A DNA stretch of 64,000 nucleotides from Candidatus Moraniibacteriota bacterium (GTDB lineage Bacteria > Patescibacteriota > Minisyncoccia > Moranbacterales > UBA11712), in contig JAQVJV010000002.1 in assembly GCA_028695025.1 (NCBI GenBank), positions 18,998 to 82,997 on the forward strand, in the 5' to 3' direction. Each line of letters opens with the position of its first letter. Position 1 is the first letter of the stretch. A program made the translations under genes and the position numbers. A model generated the notes under the pieces. The model ran no database searches and was not told the origin of the DNA. It saw nothing but the letters and a program-made list of their open reading frames with translations. Below, one piece after another: positions 21,946 to 60,714 of this stretch.

Positions 21946-22995
21946 TTAAATCTTGAACTCAATCACATCACCATCTTGGACAATATAATCTTTTCCTTCC
22001 GTGCGGAGCGTTCCCAATTCGCGGGCGCTGGCCCACGATCCGGCCTCGAGCAACTTTTCCCAGCTGATCACATCCGCGCGGATGAATTTTTCTTCGAAAT
22101 CGGTGTGGATGGCGCTTCCGGCCTGTGGGGCGCTTGAATTTTTCTTCACTGTCCAGGCGCGGGTTTCGTCGGGACCGGTGGTGAGGAAAGTGATGAGCCC
22201 TAAAATTTCATAGGCTTTGAGAATCAACTGATCAAGATTTGATTTCATGCCAAGTTCTTTGGCTTCCTCCACCGACATTTCGGAAAGTTCTTCTTCTATT
22301 TTGACATCGATAGGAACAGTATTTTCGAGAAGATTCAATCTTCGGTCTCCGAAGGTTGAACCTTCAGAAATATTCGTATTCAAGACAAACAACATCGGCT
22401 TCCAGGTGAGAAGCTGTATGTCGCGGACAAGCGAAAAATCCTCTTCTGATAATTTCAGTTCGCTGGCCAGTTTCCCCCCATCCAAAATATTTTTGATATT
22501 TTTCACAATTTCAAGCGCTTTTGCGGCAACTTTATCTTGTCCGCGGGCTTCTTTTTCAAGTCTCGCTATTCTTTTTTGCACGGTTTCAATGTCGGCGAGA
22601 ATGAGTTCGGTGTTGATCACTTCGACATCGCTCTCGGGATCAATCTTATTGTGAACGTGGGTGATGTCGCTATTCTCGAATCCGCGAACGACTTGCGCGA
22701 TTGCGTCCACCTCCCGAATATGCGAAAGGAATTTGTTTCCCAAGCCCTCGCCTTCGGCCGCGCCGCGGACCAGTCCCGCGATGTCGACAAACTCAACCAC
22801 CGTCGGGACGATTTTCGCCGAGCCTGACATTTTCGCCAGTTTTTCGAGGCGCTCATCGGGCACGCGAACAACACCGACGTTCGGTTCGATGGTGCAAAAA
22901 GGATAATTGGCAATATCCACCGGATTTTTGGTGAGAGCTTTGAACAATGTCGATTTCCCGACATTTGGAAGCCCTACGATTCCGACCCGAAGCAT
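21946..22995 (-). CDS. ychF: Ribosome-binding ATPase YchF
   Basis: GIVGLPNVGKSTLFKALT G1 motif. NTEL...TGPDETRAWTV TGS domain at the C-terminus. 349 aa. Confidence 0.92.
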   Translation of the reverse strand: MLRVGIVGLPNVGKSTLFKALTKNPVDIANYPFCTIEPNVGVVRVPDERLEKLAKMSGSAKIVPTVVEFVDIAGLVRGAAEGEGLGNKFLSHIREVDAIAQVVRGFENSDITHVHNKIDPESDVEVINTELILADIETVQKRIARLEKEARGQDKVAAKALEIVKNIKNILDGGKLASELKLSEEDFSLVRDIQLLTWKPMLFVLNTNISEGSTFGDRRLNLLENTVPIDVKIEEELSEMSVEEAKELGMKSNLDQLILKAYEILGLITFLTTGPDETRAWTVKKNSSAPQAGSAIHTDFEEKFIRADVISWEKLLEAGSWASARELGTLRTEGKDYIVQDGDVIEFKI

Positions 22996-23046
22996 AGATT
23001 TATTTGAAATTGAAATTGTTTATTGCTAAACTATTATTGCAATAAA
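22982..23046. repeat. 65-bp perfect direct repeat copy 1 (includes the real ychF start codon and upstream region)
   Basis: CCGACCCGAAGCATAGATTTATTTGAAATTGAAATTGTTTATTGCTAAACTATTATTGCAATAAA, identical to 25406-25470. Confidence 0.95.
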
Positions 23047-23207
23047 ATTAACTAAAATCAAGATTTTGACAAAACCGAAGAAAAGGGCGGCGGCAAGGAT
23101 AATATCGCCACAGTCAAACTCATTGAGGTTCTAGATAATGCTGATTTATATATCGAAGAAAAATCTTCTAGTCTAGAGCCATTGAAAATATTTTACAGGA
23201 AATAGAT

Positions 23208-23669
23208 TTGCTCTTGAAGAAGAAAGATAATCTGGCGGGCAAGTATTTGTTTGGTGCCTTTCAAAATGTGCGCAAGCAATTGATGCGGGCATTGATGTTT
23301 AAAAACCTCATCACGGAAGGGCATATCTCAAATTTGGCAAGATTCTCAACGATTGCCAAACTTATTCACCAAGCAAAACAGATTGAATGAATTGGATCGG
23401 GCCAAGCGGATTTTCTTGTTGAGACAACAAAGGGCCACTTTCTCGTGGTAGAGGTGAAATCAAACCGGGAAAAAGAAGGCTACGAAAAGAACAAGGAGCA
23501 ATACAAAGGAAAAGCCGAGCAACTTTTCAGCGAGGTGTTTGCCAAAGAAATCGGTTTCAAAGAATTTCAACAAGCCAACAAAAACTTTGAATATCGCATC
23601 ATCTTTGATGCTTCGCTCCAGAAAAGGCAGCAGGAGCTTCTGCAGGGCATTGAAAAATTTGAAAAATAA
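23208..23669 (+). pseudogene. PD-(D/E)xK (YraN/UPF0102-like) nuclease-fold ORF interrupted by an in-frame TGA at 23388-23390
   Basis: The two ORF-track pieces 23208-23390 and 23445-23669 are in one frame. ...LIHQAKQIE*IGSGQADFLVETTKGHFLVVEVKSNREKEG shows the D...EVK signature spanning the stop. Confidence 0.4.
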
Positions 23670-23700
23670 ATCAAGAAATCAAAATTGAAAAATAAAATCC

Positions 23701-23748
23701 GCCAGTCTGCGATGTTCTGCAAACTGGCGGTTCTTTTTACGCCTTTGA
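23701..23748. terminator. Bidirectional terminator hairpin, copy 1 of an identical 48-bp repeat
   Basis: AATAAAATCCGCCAGTCTGCGATGTTCTGCAAACTGGCGGTTCTTTTT. 12-bp stem with one mismatch, followed by a T-tail. Confidence 0.7.
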
Positions 23749-23757
23749 ACGCTCGGT

Positions 23758-24618
23758 TTAGGCCGTTTGTTGCCGCATAGCGTCGAACTGCGGCCAGGGG
23801 TCAAACTGCGAACCGATGCCGGGGATGATGTGCTCTTGCCTGCCCTCACCCATATAGCACCGAACTTTGGCGTTGCCTTCCGCATCCAGGTCAAAGCGGT
23901 CAACGATTTTCTTGCCGCCGCATCCACAGGGGCAGTCAACTTCAATCTGTATGACCGGGAAAAGAGGCCTCCCGTCTTCCCCGATGGGATATTTTGGGAT
24001 AGAACCCTCACGGCGACCGAAGGAATTGAAGTTTTCGTGGTTGATATGTTTGGCCATCTTCTGGAGGTCAGCCATAGGGTAGTTGGGAAATTCATCGCCG
24101 GGAAGGTCTGCCCCCATAATGCGGTTCATCAGCTCAATGAGCCTGTGGCTGCCCGCAGTGCGAGCATCGTGATTGAAAAAGGAGTAGAGGGCCTTGCCTT
24201 CCTGAACCAGGGAGAGGTCTTTCGGACGGGAGAAAATCATTTCCGCCCCGCCGTAGTCCATAACTATCTGGTAAATGAAGGTTTTGTCCGCGGGGCAACG
24301 CTTCCGGATTTTGTTGACTAGGTTTTGGACGATGTCCTTTTCTTGGGCTACCGACCAGACCATAATGAGGAAAACTGCCACGGCTTCTTCGGCTTCCCGG
24401 ATGCGGCGGATGAGCCCGCCCTTCAATTTGCCGATTTTCCGTATGAGGCCTTTCCTTTTTTTAAGGCCAACATAGGAGACAACTTGCGGGTGAAAGCTGT
24501 TGAAGCCGCGATACATCCAGAACCCCGACATAAGCTCCTCTATATCAGAGCCGTCGTAGGTTCGTTGCCCGATAAAAACGGGCAGAGCCGAAACCTCTTC
24601 TTTTTTGAAAGTCCTCAT
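23758..24618 (-). CDS. Hypothetical protein with C-terminal CPCGCGG zinc-ribbon-like motif (main cargo ORF)
   Basis: 286 aa, in GC-rich DNA. ...IQIEVDCPCGCGGKKIVDRFDLDAEGNAKVRCYMGEG. No family recognised. Confidence 0.5.
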   Translation of the reverse strand: MRTFKKEEVSALPVFIGQRTYDGSDIEELMSGFWMYRGFNSFHPQVVSYVGLKKRKGLIRKIGKLKGGLIRRIREAEEAVAVFLIMVWSVAQEKDIVQNLVNKIRKRCPADKTFIYQIVMDYGGAEMIFSRPKDLSLVQEGKALYSFFNHDARTAGSHRLIELMNRIMGADLPGDEFPNYPMADLQKMAKHINHENFNSFGRREGSIPKYPIGEDGRPLFPVIQIEVDCPCGCGGKKIVDRFDLDAEGNAKVRCYMGEGRQEHIIPGIGSQFDPWPQFDAMRQQTA

Positions 24619-24735
24619 CCTGCTTCCTCCTCAAAGCTGAATTTTACGCTGAAACATCGCATTCTCTGTTAGGAAAAGCGATAAATCATTAAAGCAATAA
24701 ATGTCCCTGATGTCAATCTGGGCCATTTTTCAGTA

Positions 24736-24783
24736 AATAAAATCCGCCAGTCTGCGATGTTCTGCAAACTGGCGGTTCTTTTT
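24736..24783. terminator. Terminator hairpin, copy 2 of the identical 48-bp repeat
   Basis: Identical to 23701-23748. Confidence 0.7.
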
Positions 24784-24919
24784 GTGATTTTAGTCGATAG
24801 TCAAGCTATCGAGAACCCAACTTTCCAACGCTTTGTTTGGAAACTCCTTGATTTCCTCGCGGTCTTCGCATTCGGATATTCGGGCCTTGTTGGCTACGAT
24901 AACTTGCATTGGAGTATAT

Positions 24920-25180
24920 TCACTCATTACCACGCTCTCGGTAAGCACGCAGCAGGTGTTTGAGCTTCGTGCATTCCGCCTTGAACCAGCGAGGGTCGAG
25001 CCAAGTGCGGTTTAGGCCAAGAATATCGTCGATGTATTCCCGGGCCTCTTCAGGCGTGGTATCGTCCTCTTCCCGCAATTCCCAGATGAGTGCTTTGATA
25101 TGAGGCAAGTCATCTTTCTTTGGGAATAGCTTCAAATGCTTGCAGATCGGCATCAGAGTGAAAACCGGATGTATCGGCAT
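24920..25180 (-). CDS. Hypothetical small protein
   Basis: 86-aa charged ORF. Its TGA overlaps, in ATGAGTGA, the start of a further 45-aa ORF (24790-24927, minus). Confidence 0.35.
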   Translation of the reverse strand: MPIHPVFTLMPICKHLKLFPKKDDLPHIKALIWELREEDDTTPEEAREYIDDILGLNRTWLDPRWFKAECTKLKHLLRAYRERGNE

Positions 25181-25269
25181 AATTTCCCCCTTGATTGTAA
25201 AATGGCTTCAGAATAGGCTACCAACAAAAAGTTTTAGTGTCAATAATCGTTATTCAAACGGCACTGACC

Positions 25270-25350
25270 GCATAATTCTTCCTTTTTAATTTCAAGCCAC
25301 GATTATTCGCTCATACTGCGGCGGTGGCAGTTTTATCGTGAAAGCGAAAG
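25270..25350. repeat. ~75-bp imperfect direct repeat, copy A
   Basis: ...CACGATTATTCGCTCATACTGCGGCGGTGGCAGTTTTATCGTGAAAG, about 80% identical to 26630-26705. Confidence 0.6.
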
Positions 25351-25405
25351 GGATGATTTTTTCAGAATTGCCGTTTGTGAAATGTCTGATAGCGTTCGCT
25401 CCGTG

Positions 25406-25470
25406 CCGACCCGAAGCATAGATTTATTTGAAATTGAAATTGTTTATTGCTAAACTATTATTGCAATAAA
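25406..25470. repeat. 65-bp perfect direct repeat copy 2 (carries a dead-end duplicate of the first 14 nt of ychF)
   Basis: Identical to 22982-23046. Similarity continues degenerately for ~30 bp (TAAAATCAAGATTTT present in both). Confidence 0.95.
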
Positions 25471-25658
25471 GCGGTTAAAAATCAAGATTTTATAAAAAAT
25501 GGACACATACTGGTAATTTCTAACGAAAATCATATGGGCATCAAAGTTGAGTTCAATCCCGATTTGGCACTCCGTGACATTTCGGGAAAAAATTGACAAT
25601 CAGCTGGATATTCTGTAATTTTTCACAAAAGCAATTTTCTCTTGAGAGGGGGAGAAAT

Positions 25659-25814
25659 ATGACCGGCGAACAGATAAAAAAGGCTATGGACGAGTATAGA
25701 GCGTTCTTTGAAAAAATGGGAGCTCCTAAAATCGATTATCCTCACGAAAAACTTCTTGACGTTCCCGTGCGGGGTTTAGCTCATTGCCACGGGATGCTGG
25801 ATAAAATGGAATAA
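25659..25814 (+). CDS. Hypothetical small protein followed by an in-frame TAA and a further 38-codon open frame
   Basis: RBS GAGAGGGGGAG, then MTGEQIKKAMDEYRAFFEKMG...MLDKME*FLKEGRIEKAMRWLCFIQGCLWSNGYYTIGQLADHKRGE. Possibly a nonsense-disrupted gene. Confidence 0.3.
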   Translation: MTGEQIKKAMDEYRAFFEKMGAPKIDYPHEKLLDVPVRGLAHCHGMLDKME

Positions 25815-25937
25815 TTTTTGAAAGAGGGCCGCATTGAAAAGGCGATGCGGTGGCTCTGCTTCATTCAGGGATGCCTCTGGTCAAACGGCTATTATACCAT
25901 TGGCCAATTGGCCGACCATAAACGAGGGGAGTGAAAG

Positions 25938-26315
25938 ATGACATATTACGAGGGATACGAAGTGAAAACCTGCACGCCAGCCGACTTTCAAGACACGATT
26001 TGCGACTGCCTGTGCGACGTTATGGTTTCCGAAGCCGATGAAAAACCGGGATGCATCGTAATCCCGACCAATCTCAACTTGCGGTATTCGGAAAAAGGCG
26101 GATTGGGCCTCGCCATTGCTGGCTTCTATGTGGCCATCCCCAGTTTTGAAAATCCGCCGAAACGGGAAGAAACCATCAAAATTATCCGGGAGGCATACGA
26201 GACTATGGTTCAGTCAATCGCGGCTCTTCCGATGAGAATTGGAGAAATACGGGAAATCCCAATTGTTCCGGACGCGGAATACAACCTCGAAATTGAACTT
26301 CATCATCTGCAATAA
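25938..26315 (+). CDS. Hypothetical protein
   Basis: 125-aa ORF. No recognised motifs. Confidence 0.4.
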   Translation: MTYYEGYEVKTCTPADFQDTICDCLCDVMVSEADEKPGCIVIPTNLNLRYSEKGGLGLAIAGFYVAIPSFENPPKREETIKIIREAYETMVQSIAALPMRIGEIREIPIVPDAEYNLEIELHHLQ

Positions 26316-26337
26316 AGACCAAGGGAGGGCTCTGGAG

Positions 26338-26538
26338 ATGAGAAAATCAGAATTGAAGCCGGGAATGAAGGTCAAGAACAAAATTTCCGGCCGGGTCGGC
26401 GAAGTCAAGGGCCTTCCCGATGGCGAATTGGGTTGTGCCGATTGGTGCGTGTCAATTCGTGCTCGCACGATGTCGGGCAAGCACAAAGGGAAGTGGGATT
26501 ATCCCATCTGGAACGTAGCAAGCCTCGAAGCTGCCTAA
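26338..26538 (+). CDS. Hypothetical small protein
   Basis: 66 aa, MRKSELKPGMKVKNKISGRVGEVKGL..., reminiscent of KOW/SH3-like small proteins. Confidence 0.35.
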   Translation: MRKSELKPGMKVKNKISGRVGEVKGLPDGELGCADWCVSIRARTMSGKHKGKWDYPIWNVASLEAA

Positions 26539-26629
26539 ATTTCGCCGGAGGCCACAAATGGCCAATAAAACAAGACCTCAAGTCTCGCGACAAGGGGTCT
26601 TTTCTTTTATTCAATCGGGACAGAATTTA

Positions 26630-26705
26630 TTATCCTGCCTTTTTCATTGCAGGACACGATTATCCGCTCGTAGCGAGATGGGGGCAGTTTTATCGTGAAG
26701 GTGGC
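26630..26705. repeat. ~75-bp imperfect direct repeat, copy B
   Basis: ...CACGATTATCCGCTCGTAGCGAGATGGGGGCAGTTTTATCGTGAAGG. Confidence 0.6.
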
Positions 26706-26750
26706 TGAAAAATCTTTGCGCGATACTTGCGTGATTTTTGGACTTCAAAA

Positions 26751-26786
26751 AAGGCGGATACAAAATGTGTCCGCCTTGATTTTTTA
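26751..26786 (+). terminator. Rho-independent terminator
   Basis: AAGGCGGATACAAAATGTGTCCGCCTT followed by GATTTTTT. Confidence 0.6.
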
Positions 26787-26825
26787 ACCTCACCCCGTCC
26801 CTCTCCTTATCAAGGGAGAGGGAGT
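26787..26825. repeat. Palindromic repeat element copy (ACCTCACCCCGTCCCTCTCCTT-ATC-AAGGGAGAGGGAG)
   Basis: Same family. Lies immediately 3' of manC on the minus strand. Confidence 0.8.
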
Positions 26826-27901
26826 TACAAATTCTTAATCTTGCCTTCGCCTTCGAGTTTTTTGACGACGTCGGAAACGAGTTGGGATTTGTTTTTGTCG
26901 GCGATGAGGATCGCGTCGGGCGTGTCGACTATTATCAAATCTTTTACGCCGATAGTGGTGATCAGTTTTTCCGATCCATAGACCAAGAGATTCTCGCTAT
27001 CGAAATCAAGGTGTTCGCCTTTTACGTTTACCAAATGTTCCTTGTTATTTCCGACCAAAGTTTCCTTGAGGGCGGTCCAGCTTCCGACATCGCTCCATTC
27101 CAACTCCAAGGGAATAACAGCGACGTTTTTTTCGTTTTCCAGAATGGCATAGTCGATGCTGTTTTTGTCCATTTCGGGAAATTCTTTTGCGAGCACTTTG
27201 GCAAAATTATTATTTTTCACGCTGTCGCGGATTTTCACAAGCCGTGCATAATCATCCGGGACATAGCTTTTGAATTTTTCGATGATCGTTTTGGTTTTCC
27301 AAAGGAACATTCCGCTGTTCCAGAAGTAGTTTTCTGATTCGAGGTATTTCTTGGCTGTTTCAAAATCCGGTTTTTCCACGAATTTTTCGGCGTGGAAAAT
27401 TTCCAAACCGTTTTTTTCGAGAGAGCCGTCCTTTTGGATATAGCCGTATCCCGTTTCCGGCGCGCTGGGCGTGATGCCGAATGTCAAAAGATATTCTTCA
27501 TGATTTTTCAAAAATTCCACGCCTTTTCGGATAGCTTCAAGAAGAACTTCCGGATTTTGGATAAAATGGTCGGCGGGGAAAACTCCCATGATTTCTTCTT
27601 CGTCATTTGCGGCAATCACGGCGGCGGCGAGAGCCACAGAGGGTGCGGTGTTTCGCCCTACCGGTTCAGCCAAGATATTCTCTTTTGGAAATTCAAGGAT
27701 TTCTTTTTCCACTTCGCTCACATATTCCTGGTTGGTGGCGACGTATATATCTTCCGGTTCGGCGATTTTCCGCAGGCGCAGGTAGGTTTCCTGAAGCATG
27801 GTTTTGTCGGAGGTGAGGCACTGGAATTGTTTCGGTTTGTTTTTCCGGCTCACGGGCCAAAGGCGGGTTCCTTTTCCGCCGGCCATGATGACGAGTTTCA
27901 T
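26825..27901 (-). CDS. manC: Mannose-1-phosphate guanylyltransferase
   Basis: MKLVIMAGGKGTRLWPVSRKNKPKQF and the nucleotidyl-transferase fold. The ORF track extends to 27937 across a tandem GTGATCAGTGA repeat. Confidence 0.85.
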   Translation of the reverse strand: MKLVIMAGGKGTRLWPVSRKNKPKQFQCLTSDKTMLQETYLRLRKIAEPEDIYVATNQEYVSEVEKEILEFPKENILAEPVGRNTAPSVALAAAVIAANDEEEIMGVFPADHFIQNPEVLLEAIRKGVEFLKNHEEYLLTFGITPSAPETGYGYIQKDGSLEKNGLEIFHAEKFVEKPDFETAKKYLESENYFWNSGMFLWKTKTIIEKFKSYVPDDYARLVKIRDSVKNNNFAKVLAKEFPEMDKNSIDYAILENEKNVAVIPLELEWSDVGSWTALKETLVGNNKEHLVNVKGEHLDFDSENLLVYGSEKLITTIGVKDLIIVDTPDAILIADKNKSQLVSDVVKKLEGEGKIKNL

Positions 27902-59921: not shown

Positions 59922-60040
59922 GCTTGATGCGGCGATACGCTGGATATCATAGCAAAAATGGGTGAATTCGTCAAGAATTGCGGATCCAGGCAAATTCCGG
60001 ATGCTTTGAAAAATCCAGCCGATTTGATATAATCGGCTAT

Positions 60041-60385
60041 ATGAAAAAGGTTGAGAAAAATATCTCTTTAGGCGAGCTTCGGCAGATGGCTGAAAATATG
60101 TTTGGCAACCTGGTGAAAGCGGTGGTTGATGTCGAAAAAGGAACCATGGCGGTTGACGCGGAACTCCATGCCGATGAGGAAGCTTTTCTTTTGGAAAAAG
60201 GTTCACAACAAAAAAATCTTTGGGGAATCAATCTTTATCCGGAATTTTTCGGCCAAGATGATTTTGTGGAATTCGATTCGATGGTCAATCTGCGCCCTTC
60301 GCAGGAAAATCGCAGCCGGGGAGTGGAAAATCCGGAAATTCGAAAAAAAATCCGGGAAATAATCGCTAATTTAGTCACGAAATGA
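60041..60385 (+). CDS. Hypothetical protein
   Basis: MKKVEKNISLGELRQMAENMFGN... The ORF track starts at 59978. No motif recognised. Confidence 0.4.
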   Translation: MKKVEKNISLGELRQMAENMFGNLVKAVVDVEKGTMAVDAELHADEEAFLLEKGSQQKNLWGINLYPEFFGQDDFVEFDSMVNLRPSQENRSRGVENPEIRKKIREIIANLVTK

Positions 60386-60714
60386 AGCCCCAGCATCAAC
60401 AATTGGCGGATGGAAAATGGGAGAGTATGGACTTTTTTCAGCAAATGGCCAATGTCGGCAGTGAAGTGGAGCGGGCGATCAGATGGAACGAAAAGAAAAA
60501 CGCGGCTTATGGCCGGATGGCCTTTGAAAGGTCTCTTGAGCTTCTGGATTTCACGATTGCGGACAGAAAAAACAGGAAGAGGCTGAAAGAACTCTTGAGA
60601 TTGAGAGAATTTTTGGCCGATTATTTCTTTTTCGGGAATATTTATCGGTCAACAAAAAAAAGCTGGCAGAACTATTTTTTCAGTTTCAATTATGCCGCCA
60701 GGCTCGGACGCTGA
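60382..60714 (+). CDS. Hypothetical protein
   Basis: 110 aa. ATGA start/stop overlap with the upstream ORF. Confidence 0.4.
   Translation: MKPQHQQLADGKWESMDFFQQMANVGSEVERAIRWNEKKNAAYGRMAFERSLELLDFTIADRKNRKRLKELLRLREFLADYFFFGNIYRSTKKSWQNYFFSFNYAARLGR

What the first reader, a model, noticed from the sequence alone, without database searches (positions are those of the whole stretch)
23758..24618. Main cargo ORF: 286-aa protein with C-terminal CPCGCGG zinc-ribbon-like motif and no recognisable family
This is the only long intact ORF of the inserted segment. It is GC-rich, with a Cys cluster ...VDCPCGCGGKKIVDRFDLDAEGNAKVRCY... near the C-terminus, and lies between two identical terminator hairpins. 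I cannot assign it to an integrase, a Rep protein or a defence family from sequence. Its function could be replication, partition or host interference.
Basis: seen in the sequence. Interest (0 to 1): 0.5.

Follow-up and report, generated by a model that had tools for sequence, protein, structure and literature searches.

The report
Orphan accessory protein in decayed island
The 286-residue ORF is a real, selected gene from a small, previously uncatalogued protein family, carried in a horizontally acquired, decaying island next to ychF in a Moranbacteria genome; its biochemical function is still unknown.

Summary
ORF 23758-24618 (-) is intact and has its own RBS, promoter-like site and terminator. 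It sits between two identical 49-nt terminator hairpins.

It is a real gene. dN/dS is 0.13 against an 84%-identical relative. A full HMMER scan of 1.84 billion representatives found 72 related clusters. The AlphaFold model has pLDDT 92 and pTM 0.90.

The model shows three parts:
- a CheY/flavodoxin-like alpha/beta domain;
- a strongly conserved Arg/Asp/Glu/Lys/Tyr-rich segment (residues 151-223);
- a C-terminal zinc ribbon, found only in a Parcubacteria/Moranbacteria subgroup.

Pfam, NCBIfam, PHROGs, PADLOC, PDB (sequence and fold) and BFVD give no specific relative.

The gene block is younger than its flanks: dS is 0.69, against about 2 or saturated for ychF, S6, SSB and EF-P. It lies inside a 2.4-kb segment bounded by a perfect 65-bp direct repeat that includes the ychF start. 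That segment has no integrase, so it resembles a decayed att-flanked element (CIME-like). Related genomes carry 5'-truncated copies at the same site.

Across about 25 loci there is no conserved partner. The recurrent neighbours are Fic/Doc, integrases, NYN and toxin-antitoxin genes.

Best reading: a stand-alone accessory ("conflict-type") ligand- or partner-binding protein, not the element's recombinase or replicase. Function is inferred only. Interest is modest.

The parts
23758..24618 (-). 286-aa ORF (NCBI 'hypothetical protein PHF35_00785', Candidatus Moranbacteria). Founding window member of an uncatalogued family.
24169..24618 (-). Residues 1-150: five-stranded beta-alpha domain, CheY/flavodoxin-like. 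G17 is 98% conserved; R19 and D25 about 75%. The loop at residues 121-140 is variable and has low pLDDT.
23950..24168 (-). Residues 151-223: the most conserved segment of the family (two helices plus an extended arm). D151-A-P-T-A-G, R159, R166, G169, D171, F177, P178, Y180, E195, F197, N198, K209, Y210 and P218 are invariant or nearly so.
23761..23949 (-). Residues 224-286: zinc-ribbon module (C229/C231/C233, C254, H263) plus the conserved tail FDPWPxF. Present only in the Moranbacteria/Parcubacteria-type subgroup.
24625..24630 (-). Shine-Dalgarno GGAGGA, 6 nt upstream of the ATG.
24688..24716 (-). Sigma-70-like promoter candidate TTGACA-17-TTTAAT, between the upstream hairpin and the ORF. 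Consensus match only.
   Evidence: read from the sequence; the scanner requires A at position 2 of the -10 hexamer and so skipped it
23690..23738 (.). Hairpin copy 1: bidirectional intrinsic terminator just downstream of the ORF, shared with the convergent nuclease remnant.
   Evidence: 47/48 identical in L001, where the surrounding DNA is 84-86% identical
24735..24783 (.). Hairpin copy 2: identical 49 nt, 117 nt upstream of the ORF start. Terminates the 86-aa ORF.
22982..23046 (.). 65-bp perfect direct repeat, copy 1. Contains ychF codons 1-5 (14 nt) and 51 nt upstream with divergent promoter-like sites. att-like left boundary of the 2.4-kb segment.
25406..25470 (.). 65-bp perfect direct repeat, copy 2: att-like right boundary. 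Weaker similarity continues to 25498.
   Evidence: D2, D7
23409..23669 (+). 3' remnant of a TnsA-like PD-(D/E)XK nuclease gene ('DFLVETTKGHFLVVEVKS'), convergent with the ORF. Intact ~271-aa homologues in other candidate-phyla-radiation (CPR) contigs sit next to an FtsK/SpoIIIE gene.
24920..25180 (-). 86-aa orphan ORF upstream of the family gene, inside the repeat-bounded segment. No hit in any library.

Best explanation
**Shown**
- The ORF is a functional, monocistronic gene with its own promoter-like site, RBS and strong terminator.
- It encodes a soluble protein of a small, sporadically distributed and uncatalogued family.
- The protein has a CheY/flavodoxin-like alpha/beta domain, then a nearly invariant 70-residue Arg/Asp/Glu/Lys/Tyr-rich segment. 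In this subgroup a C-terminal zinc ribbon follows.
- It is cargo of a horizontally acquired block next to ychF. The block is bounded by a 65-bp att-like repeat, has no recombinase of its own, and contains gene remnants. That matches a decayed, non-autonomous integrated element (CIME-like).

**Inferred**
- The protein is not the element's replication or integration enzyme.
- It is a stand-alone accessory protein of the flexible genome, most likely with a conflict-type role (defence, addiction or interference).
- It probably works by binding, and perhaps modifying, a phosphorylated small ligand or a partner macromolecule. The binding site would lie at the C-terminal edge of the beta-sheet (G17-x-R19 loop and D151-APTAG loop) and be capped by the invariant R159/R166/D171/Y180/E195/N198/K209/Y210 segment.
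- The zinc ribbon would add a nucleic-acid or protein docking surface.
For: **Real gene under selection.** dN/dS is 0.13 over 166 codons. There are 72 homologous clusters, 64 of them below E 1e-10. The AlphaFold model has pLDDT 92.3 and pTM 0.90.

**Architecture.**

**Insulated transcription unit.**

**Horizontal origin.**
- dS is 0.69 for the gene, and the downstream non-coding DNA is 86% identical. ychF has dS 1.96, SSB 2.09, EF-P 2.11, and S6 is saturated.
- A 65-bp perfect repeat includes the ychF start.
- No integrase hit was found in the segment or seen in the window.
- A TnsA-like remnant is present. Its intact relatives neighbour FtsK/SpoIIIE genes.
- Two different 5' truncations of the gene occur at the same locus in relatives L001/L002 and L003.

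**Accessory, conflict-type context.**
- Hosts are scattered: Moranbacteria, Daviesbacteria, Parcubacteria, Gammaproteobacteria metagenome-assembled genomes and Bdellovibrionales.
- There is no conserved partner gene.
- Among 94 non-redundant neighbours the only recurrent Pfam families are Fic/Doc (3), phage integrase (2) and NYN (2). HicAB and MazF are also adjacent in single loci.

**Definition used.** CIME as defined in PMC5704250.
Against: - PADLOC gives only two marginal hits among 64 members, so no link to a known defence system exists.
- The neighbour enrichment is small (about 9 of 25 loci) and was not tested against a background.
- I had no coordinates of the model, so the spatial clustering of the conserved residues is assumed, not shown.
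- The att interpretation rests on one repeat pair. No empty site or excision junction was observed. L022 has a family gene about 3 kb from ychF, which could also mean old regional residence.
- No copies were found in phage, plasmid or IMG/VR collections, so the vehicle that moves it is unknown.
Confidence: 0.5

Rival explanations
1. The protein is the mobility enzyme of the repeat-bounded segment: a novel site-specific recombinase, or a replication or partition protein. This is what the first reader suggested.
For: It is the only long intact ORF between the 65-bp repeats. It has invariant Arg, Lys and Tyr residues (R159, R166, K209, Y180, Y210) and a zinc ribbon that could bind DNA. The gene is also flanked by a 49-nt perfect repeat, and by a 36-nt imperfect repeat in L030.
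Against: - No Pfam, NCBIfam or PHROGs hit to integrase, resolvase, HUH-Rep, transposase or ParA/B, for it or for 64 relatives.
- There is no conserved Ser at the beta1 end and no HUH motif.
- Most family members lack the zinc ribbon. They sit singly among housekeeping genes without flanking repeats.
- Where elements are recognisable (L013/L030, L011), a separate tyrosine integrase is present.
Confidence: 0.05
2. It is a lineage-specific resident gene, a metabolic or salvage enzyme useful to host-dependent bacteria. The repeats around it are local duplications of promoter and terminator DNA, not traces of mobility.
For: Purifying selection. An enzyme-like alpha/beta fold with conserved loop motifs. 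The hosts are mostly host- or prey-dependent lineages: candidate-phyla-radiation (CPR) bacteria and Bdellovibrionales. Many loci are surrounded purely by housekeeping genes. L022 also has a copy about 3 kb from ychF. The 65-bp repeat carries promoter-like sites that could simply have been duplicated.
Against: - dS is three-fold lower than for all four flanking genes, and the adjacent non-coding DNA is 86% identical.
- The family is extremely rare: 72 clusters in 1.84 billion representatives, and 7 of 185,579 species representatives by pattern scan.
- There is no conserved synteny.
- The gene has been truncated twice independently in close relatives.
- It has the highest GC3 in the window.
Confidence: 0.2
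3. It is a regulatory pseudo-receiver: a CheY-like domain without the phospho-acceptor. It would act as a protein-protein switch or, through the zinc ribbon, as a nucleic-acid-binding regulator of neighbouring island genes.
Against: - No Response_reg Pfam hit, and none of the receiver residues is conserved: the acidic pair after beta1, the Asp after beta3, the Thr/Ser after beta4 or the Lys after beta5.
- The part under strongest constraint is the non-receiver segment 151-223.
- There is no conserved target gene or kinase nearby.
- Most members lack any DNA-binding module.
Confidence: 0.15
4. It is a dying gene or an annotation artefact with no present function.
For: The surrounding island is full of remnants: the TnsA-like fragment and a small ORF with an in-frame stop. 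The closest relatives are truncated. In the window copy the second zinc knuckle has lost its CxxC.
Against: The reading frame is intact with RBS, promoter-like site and terminator. dN/dS is 0.13. All family-invariant residues are retained. Four Cys plus one His are still available for zinc. The fold prediction is confident.
Confidence: 0.07

Closest known systems
CheY-like receiver / flavodoxin-like three-layer alpha/beta/alpha domains (e.g. PDB 6xvu, 3kht)
   Different: 8-13% identity and no Pfam Response_reg hit. None of the phosphorylation residues is conserved. It carries an extra invariant 70-residue segment and a zinc ribbon. Creatininase, SGNH esterases, periplasmic binding proteins and VWA domains score almost as well, so only the fold class is shared.
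Zinc-ribbon modules (Pfam Zn_ribbon_Elf1, Zn_Ribbon_TF, Zn_ribbon_3 and similar)
   Same: A CPxC knuckle, then 20-24 residues, then a second Cys knuckle on a small four-stranded beta module. A few relatives give weak hits to these Pfam models.
   Different: In the window protein the second knuckle is C254...H263 rather than CxxC, with an extra Cys (C231) in the first knuckle. The ribbon is followed by a conserved FDPWPEF helix. It is absent from most of the family.
CIMEs (cis-mobilizable elements): decayed integrative elements that keep attL/attR but have lost integration and transfer genes (PMC5704250)
   Same: A 2.4-kb segment flanked by a perfect 65-bp direct repeat overlapping the end of a conserved gene (ychF). 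It has no recombinase, contains gene remnants and is younger than its flanks.
   Different: The repeat covers the 5' end and promoter of a protein gene rather than a tRNA or 3' end. No parental ICE or IME, integrase or excision product has been seen. The host is a candidate-phyla-radiation (CPR) bacterium, where such elements are not characterised.
Single-gene accessory or defence cargo of genomic islands (as catalogued in PADLOC)
   Same: Stand-alone, sporadically distributed and horizontally moved. It is insulated by terminators and neighbours Fic/Doc, HicAB, MazF, NYN and integrase genes.
   Different: No credible match to any of 5027 PADLOC models. No phenotype is known.

Membership tests
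Response regulator receiver (Pfam PF00072) | Profile match above the gathering threshold | tested here: not met
   No hit for the query or for any of 64 relatives at E <= 0.1.
Response regulator receiver (Pfam PF00072) | Conserved acidic pair after beta1, phospho-acceptor Asp after beta3, Thr/Ser after beta4, Lys after beta5 | tested here: not met
   After beta1 the conserved residues are G17-x-R19. No position after beta3 (79-86) or beta4 (113-121) reaches 60% conservation as Asp, Thr or Ser (with the secondary structure).
Response regulator receiver (Pfam PF00072) | (beta-alpha)5 fold | tested here: met
Zinc ribbon | Two Cys/His knuckles on beta-hairpins providing four zinc ligands | tested here: inconclusive
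   C229, C233 and C254 are invariant in 15 ribbon-bearing members, but the fourth ligand varies between C and H. The window protein has C229/C231/C233/C254/H263. The model shows four beta-strands. Metal binding cannot be tested here.
Tyrosine recombinase (Phage_integrase PF00589) | Profile match; R-K-H-R-H/W plus Tyr catalytic set in a mainly helical catalytic domain | tested here: not met
   No Pfam, PHROGs or NCBIfam hit. The fold is alpha/beta and CheY-like. Genuine integrases occur as separate genes in L013/L030.
Serine recombinase (Resolvase PF00239) | Profile match; catalytic Ser at the end of beta1 of an alpha/beta domain; DNA-binding domain | tested here: not met
   No profile hit. No conserved Ser near beta1. 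Most members have no DNA-binding module.
HUH rolling-circle Rep/relaxase | HUH metal-binding motif plus catalytic Tyr motif | tested here: not met
   No HUH motif in the alignment. The only semi-conserved His is H191, in the context H-I-N. No profile hit.
Known anti-phage defence proteins (PADLOC-DB 2.0) | Match to a system component model | tested here: not met
   0 hits for the query. Only 2 of 64 relatives hit PDC-M14A, best E 0.0017, and 1 hits PDC-M19B. These are at the level expected from 64 searches.
Type II toxin-antitoxin module | Conserved two-gene operon of a small antitoxin and a toxin | tested here: not met
   No conserved adjacent partner in about 25 loci. TA genes nearby (HicAB in L008, MazF in L032) are complete or foreign modules, not partners.
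CIME / decayed integrative element (for the 23047-25405 segment) | attL and attR direct repeats retained | tested here: met
   65-bp perfect direct repeat at 22982-23046 and 25406-25470, overlapping the ychF start.
CIME / decayed integrative element (for the 23047-25405 segment) | No integration or transfer genes inside | tested here: met
   All ORFs of the segment lack hits in Pfam, PHROGs, NCBIfam and PADLOC. No integrase-like ORF is seen in the 64-kb window (by inspection).
CIME / decayed integrative element (for the 23047-25405 segment) | Derived from an ICE or IME, and mobilisable in cis by a related element's integrase | not testable with these tools
   The only hint is the TnsA-like remnant, whose intact homologues lie beside FtsK/SpoIIIE genes in other candidate-phyla-radiation (CPR) contigs. 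No excision junction or parental element was found.
Integron gene cassette | attC site with R''/L''-L'/R' cores (RYYYAAC ... GTTRRRY) after the gene; integron integrase nearby | tested here: not met
   The 49-nt repeat is a simple GC stem plus U-run and has no such cores. No integrase is in the window.

The most novel reading that the evidence does not exclude
The family could be the first sighting of an undescribed single-protein conflict or effector system. It would have a CheY-like scaffold with a new invariant R/D/E/K/Y active site, sometimes fused to a zinc ribbon. It would circulate as terminator-insulated one-gene cassettes among host-dependent bacteria such as candidate-phyla-radiation (CPR) lineages and Bdellovibrionales. 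The hairpin is more conserved than the gene itself (47/48 against 84-86% identity), so it might play a part in moving the cassette.
Probability: 0.12. Interest if true: 0.6.

Novelty: new variant of a known kind. Interest (0 to 1): 0.3.

Why it matters
Candidate-phyla-radiation (CPR) genomes are small, and most of their accessory genes are 'dark'.

This work defines one such family precisely: about 70 clusters, a confident fold, a set of invariant residues, and an optional zinc ribbon. It also shows the family travels horizontally into a specific site beside ychF.

That gives two concrete handles:
- a candidate att site and decayed integrative element in a phylum where mobile elements are barely described;
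- a compact, well-folded protein that could be expressed and screened for ligand, toxicity or anti-phage activity.

Without a function, it remains one of many orphan families.

Tried and rejected
- **Profile libraries.** Pfam, NCBIfam, PHROGs and PADLOC on the ORF, on 64 relatives and on the other island ORFs gave nothing specific.
- **PDB sequence profiles.** The full-length profile and the profile of residues 143-223 gave only E of about 0.08-0.1 noise. One hit was a CbbX lid segment, 'EFPDYSxEEL', which I treat as chance.
- **Phage, plasmid and viral searches.** tblastn against phages and plasmids, plus pattern and profile scans of IMG/VR, found no relatives. The hairpin has no IMG/VR match. 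The three matches to the 17-mer of the 93-nt repeat are chance.
- **Rfam on 22500-27500.** Nothing above noise. The 93-nt repeat does not fold better than shuffles.
- **Conserved neighbour or operon partner.** None found.
- **Flanking repeats as a family trait.** Seen only in the window and in L030, and as a cassette-like array in L005. Absent from most loci.
- **tRNA integration sites.** None in any locus.
- **Empty-site variant through an exact YchF look-up.** Not on record.
- **Integron attC, recombinase, Rep and TA readings.** Rejected; see the membership tests.
- **Alignment-driven locus search.** It failed for lack of a conserved 7-10-residue stretch. A hand-made degenerate DNA pattern was used instead.

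Full report
**1. Observation**

The window carries an uninterrupted 286-codon ORF at 23758-24618 on the minus strand. It contains the quoted Cys cluster: C229, C231, C233, C254 and H263. GGAGGA lies 6 nt before the ATG. TTGACA-17-TTTAAT lies about 70 nt upstream.

A perfect 49-nt direct repeat flanks the gene at 23690-23738 and 24735-24783. On the gene's strand the repeat is a 12-bp GC-rich stem followed by a U-run, with dG -24.3 kcal/mol and z = -5.9. An independent read-level assembly (Logan, SRR22315504) contains a 1056-nt unitig that is 100% identical to 23709-24764. That is exactly the interval between the two hairpin copies plus 30-nt overlaps, as expected for a true repeat.

GC content is 53.0% against 46.1% for the window. 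GC3 is 0.652, the highest of 43 ORFs of at least 150 aa but only about 1.6 sd above their mean.

**2. It is a real gene of an uncatalogued family**

The identical protein is deposited as 'hypothetical protein PHF35_00785 [Candidatus Moranbacteria bacterium]'.

- A word-indexed search of 5.8 billion clusters found only 4 relatives.
- An exhaustive HMMER scan of 1.84 billion representatives found 72 (64 below E 1e-10), mostly 210-290 aa.
- Against the closest relative (84% identity, contigs L001-L003), dN/dS is 0.13 over 166 codons.

None of the following gives a hit to the query, and 64 relatives give only weak zinc-ribbon or marginal hits:
- Pfam-A
- NCBIfam
- PHROGs
- PADLOC

PDB sequence profiles give only noise.

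**3. Structure**

With the 64-sequence alignment, AlphaFold2 gives pLDDT 92.3 and pTM 0.90. The model has three parts.

- **Residues 1-150** form a (beta-alpha)5 domain.
- **Residues 151-223** form two helices and a long extended arm.
- **Residues 224-286** form a four-stranded zinc-ribbon-like module plus a terminal helix.

Conservation is concentrated outside the receiver-like part:
- R166, G169 and P178 are invariant.
- R159, D171, F177, Y180, E195, F197, N198, K209, Y210 and P218 are at least 91% conserved.
- G17 is 98% conserved. R19, D25 and D151 are about 75% conserved.
- The receiver phosphorylation residues are absent.

The zinc ribbon and the FDPWPEF tail occur only in the window protein, its truncated relatives, L005, L014 (Parcubacteria) and L015. 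Most members stop 11 residues after the PKY motif. In the window protein the second knuckle has lost its second Cys, but an extra Cys in the first knuckle and H263 remain.

**4. Genomic setting in the window**

The flanks are ordinary chromosome of a candidate-phyla-radiation (CPR) bacterium:
- rpoB/C, recA, efp, rpsR, ssb, rpsF and ychF on the left;
- a sugar-nucleotidyltransferase and a phosphomannomutase-type gene on the right (identified by inspection).

Between ychF and the next housekeeping gene lie about 3.8 kb of orphan ORFs.

A perfect 65-bp direct repeat (22982-23046 and 25406-25470) contains the first 14 nt of ychF plus 51 nt upstream. That upstream stretch carries divergent promoter-like sites. 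The repeat bounds a 2.4-kb segment. Inside the segment are:
- a 3' remnant of a TnsA-like PD-(D/E)XK nuclease gene (23409-23669, +), convergent with the family gene and sharing the bidirectional terminator;
- the family gene itself;
- the second hairpin copy;
- an 86-aa orphan ORF.

Intact homologues of the nuclease (about 271 aa) lie next to FtsK/SpoIIIE genes in other CPR contigs, which do not carry the family gene.

No integrase is present in the segment, and none was seen in the 64-kb window. [quoted passage not shown] Its derivation and mobility could not be tested.

**5. The block is younger than its surroundings**

Contigs L001-L003 come from related Moranbacteria. They carry the same arrangement next to ychF: family gene, hairpin, nuclease remnant.

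| Region compared with L001 | Result |
|---|---|
| Family gene | dS 0.69 |
| 194 nt of non-coding/remnant DNA downstream | 86% identical |
| ychF | dS 1.96 |
| SSB | dS 2.09 |
| EF-P | dS 2.11 |
| S6 | saturated |

The hairpin itself is 47/48 identical. Hence the block was exchanged, or integrated at the same site, after the host lineages diverged.

In these relatives the gene is 5'-truncated at two different junctions: L001/L002 at the position of window 24318, and L003 at 24289. So it is dispensable there.

**6. Distribution and neighbours**

A degenerate DNA pattern built on invariant residues recovered 7 true loci among 185,579 species-representative genomes. These were two Daviesbacteria, one Parcubacteria, two Gammaproteobacteria metagenome-assembled genomes, one Bdellovibrionales and one unclassified bacterium. 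It also recovered about 21 loci in JGI metagenomes and none in IMG/VR. tblastn found none in phage or plasmid collections.

All-against-all comparison of neighbours shows no conserved partner. Among 94 non-redundant neighbours within three genes, the only recurrent Pfam families are Fic/Doc (3), phage integrase (2) and NYN (2). HicA/HicB (L008) and MazF (L032) are directly adjacent in single loci. The rest are unrelated housekeeping genes.

Flanking repeats are not a family trait, and no locus contains a tRNA gene.

**7. Interpretation**

*Shown:*
- The gene is real and selected.
- Its family is absent from curated libraries.
- The fold class is common, but there is no specific structural relative.
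- The gene is horizontally acquired cargo in a decaying, att-flanked, recombinase-less segment beside ychF.

*Inferred:*
- It is a stand-alone accessory protein, probably of the conflict type.
- It would act through a ligand- or partner-binding site formed by the beta1 and beta5 loops and the invariant 151-223 segment, with the zinc ribbon as an added docking module.

Replication, partition or recombination roles are unlikely (see the membership tests). The biochemical activity remains unknown. The steps that would settle it are listed under decisive next steps.

**8. Verdict**

- cargo of an insertion: yes;
- no recognisable family: yes;
- replication or partition: no;
- interference: possible.

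This is a well-defined orphan family in a CIME-like island of a CPR genome. It is useful as a lead but not in itself surprising. Interest 0.3.

Noticed in passing
window 25250-25342 and 26607-26699: A 93-nt direct repeat, 76% identical, with both copies ending in the identical 17-mer GGCAGTTTTATCGTGAA. One copy lies just inside the right end of the 65-bp-bounded segment. The other lies at the right end of the small-ORF cluster. It does not fold better than shuffles and has no Rfam hit. It might mark the ends of two tandem insertions.
   Followed up: partly
window 25659-25934 (+): A small ORF with a good RBS is interrupted by an in-frame TAA at 25812-25814 ('...HCHGMLDKME*FLKEGRIEKAMRWLCFIQGCLW...'). 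It looks like another decaying gene. The merged sequence has no Pfam hit.
   Followed up: partly
window 25938-26315 and 26338-26538 (+): Two further orphan ORFs (125 and 66 aa) with strong RBSs. They lie downstream of the second copy of the promoter-bearing 65-bp repeat. No hit in Pfam, NCBIfam, PHROGs or PADLOC.
   Followed up: partly
window 23409-23669 (+); loci L040-L043: Remnant of a TnsA-like PD-(D/E)XK nuclease gene. Intact ~271-aa homologues (78% nt identity) sit immediately upstream of a 300-350-aa FtsK/SpoIIIE gene in several candidate-phyla-radiation (CPR) contigs. This may be a small transfer module of a CPR mobile element.
   Followed up: partly
L001 1-125, L002 1-127, L003 1-33: The truncated family genes abut different foreign sequences. 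In L001/L002 an opposite-strand ORF starts 'MSTPKIGHRVSREVREQILKRIREE' and runs off the contig end. That would fit a repeated (IS-like?) element breaking the assembly.
   Followed up: no
L005 6684-8428: The island upstream of the family gene is built of small orphan genes separated by repeated intergenic blocks: a 31-nt perfect repeat spaced 1009 nt apart and a 54-nt repeat at 78%. This cassette-array-like organisation is reminiscent of the hairpin-bounded unit in the window.
   Followed up: no
L022 1262-1287 and 2142-2167; L026 1996-2021; L035 1081-1106 and 6334-6359: The same 26-nt intergenic motif, GAGTTTTTGGAGGTGGGTGGATTTGG, recurs in contigs from different metagenomes. It lies next to the family gene on either side. 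It is probably a lineage-specific intergenic repeat or promoter/RBS block.
   Followed up: partly
L032 1127-2325 (-): A PemK/MazF toxin gene lies 56 nt upstream of the family gene on the same strand, with no obvious MazE-like antitoxin ORF before it.
   Followed up: no
family residues 177-221 vs PDB 3zuh/3syk (CbbX) residues 193-246: Weak similarity (E about 0.09) between the invariant 'FPxYsxxxLxxIAxHI' stretch and the start of the lid domain of CbbX-type AAA+ proteins ('EFPDYSDEELFEIAGHML'). There is no Walker A or B motif and no AAA+ fold match, so I treat it as chance.
   Followed up: partly
window 60039-60680 vs L040 3890-4529: A pair of small genes, one of them DUF5674 in the L040 annotation, is conserved at 65% nt identity between this genome and the CPR contig that carries the intact TnsA-like gene. 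This probably just reflects relatedness of the hosts.
   Followed up: no
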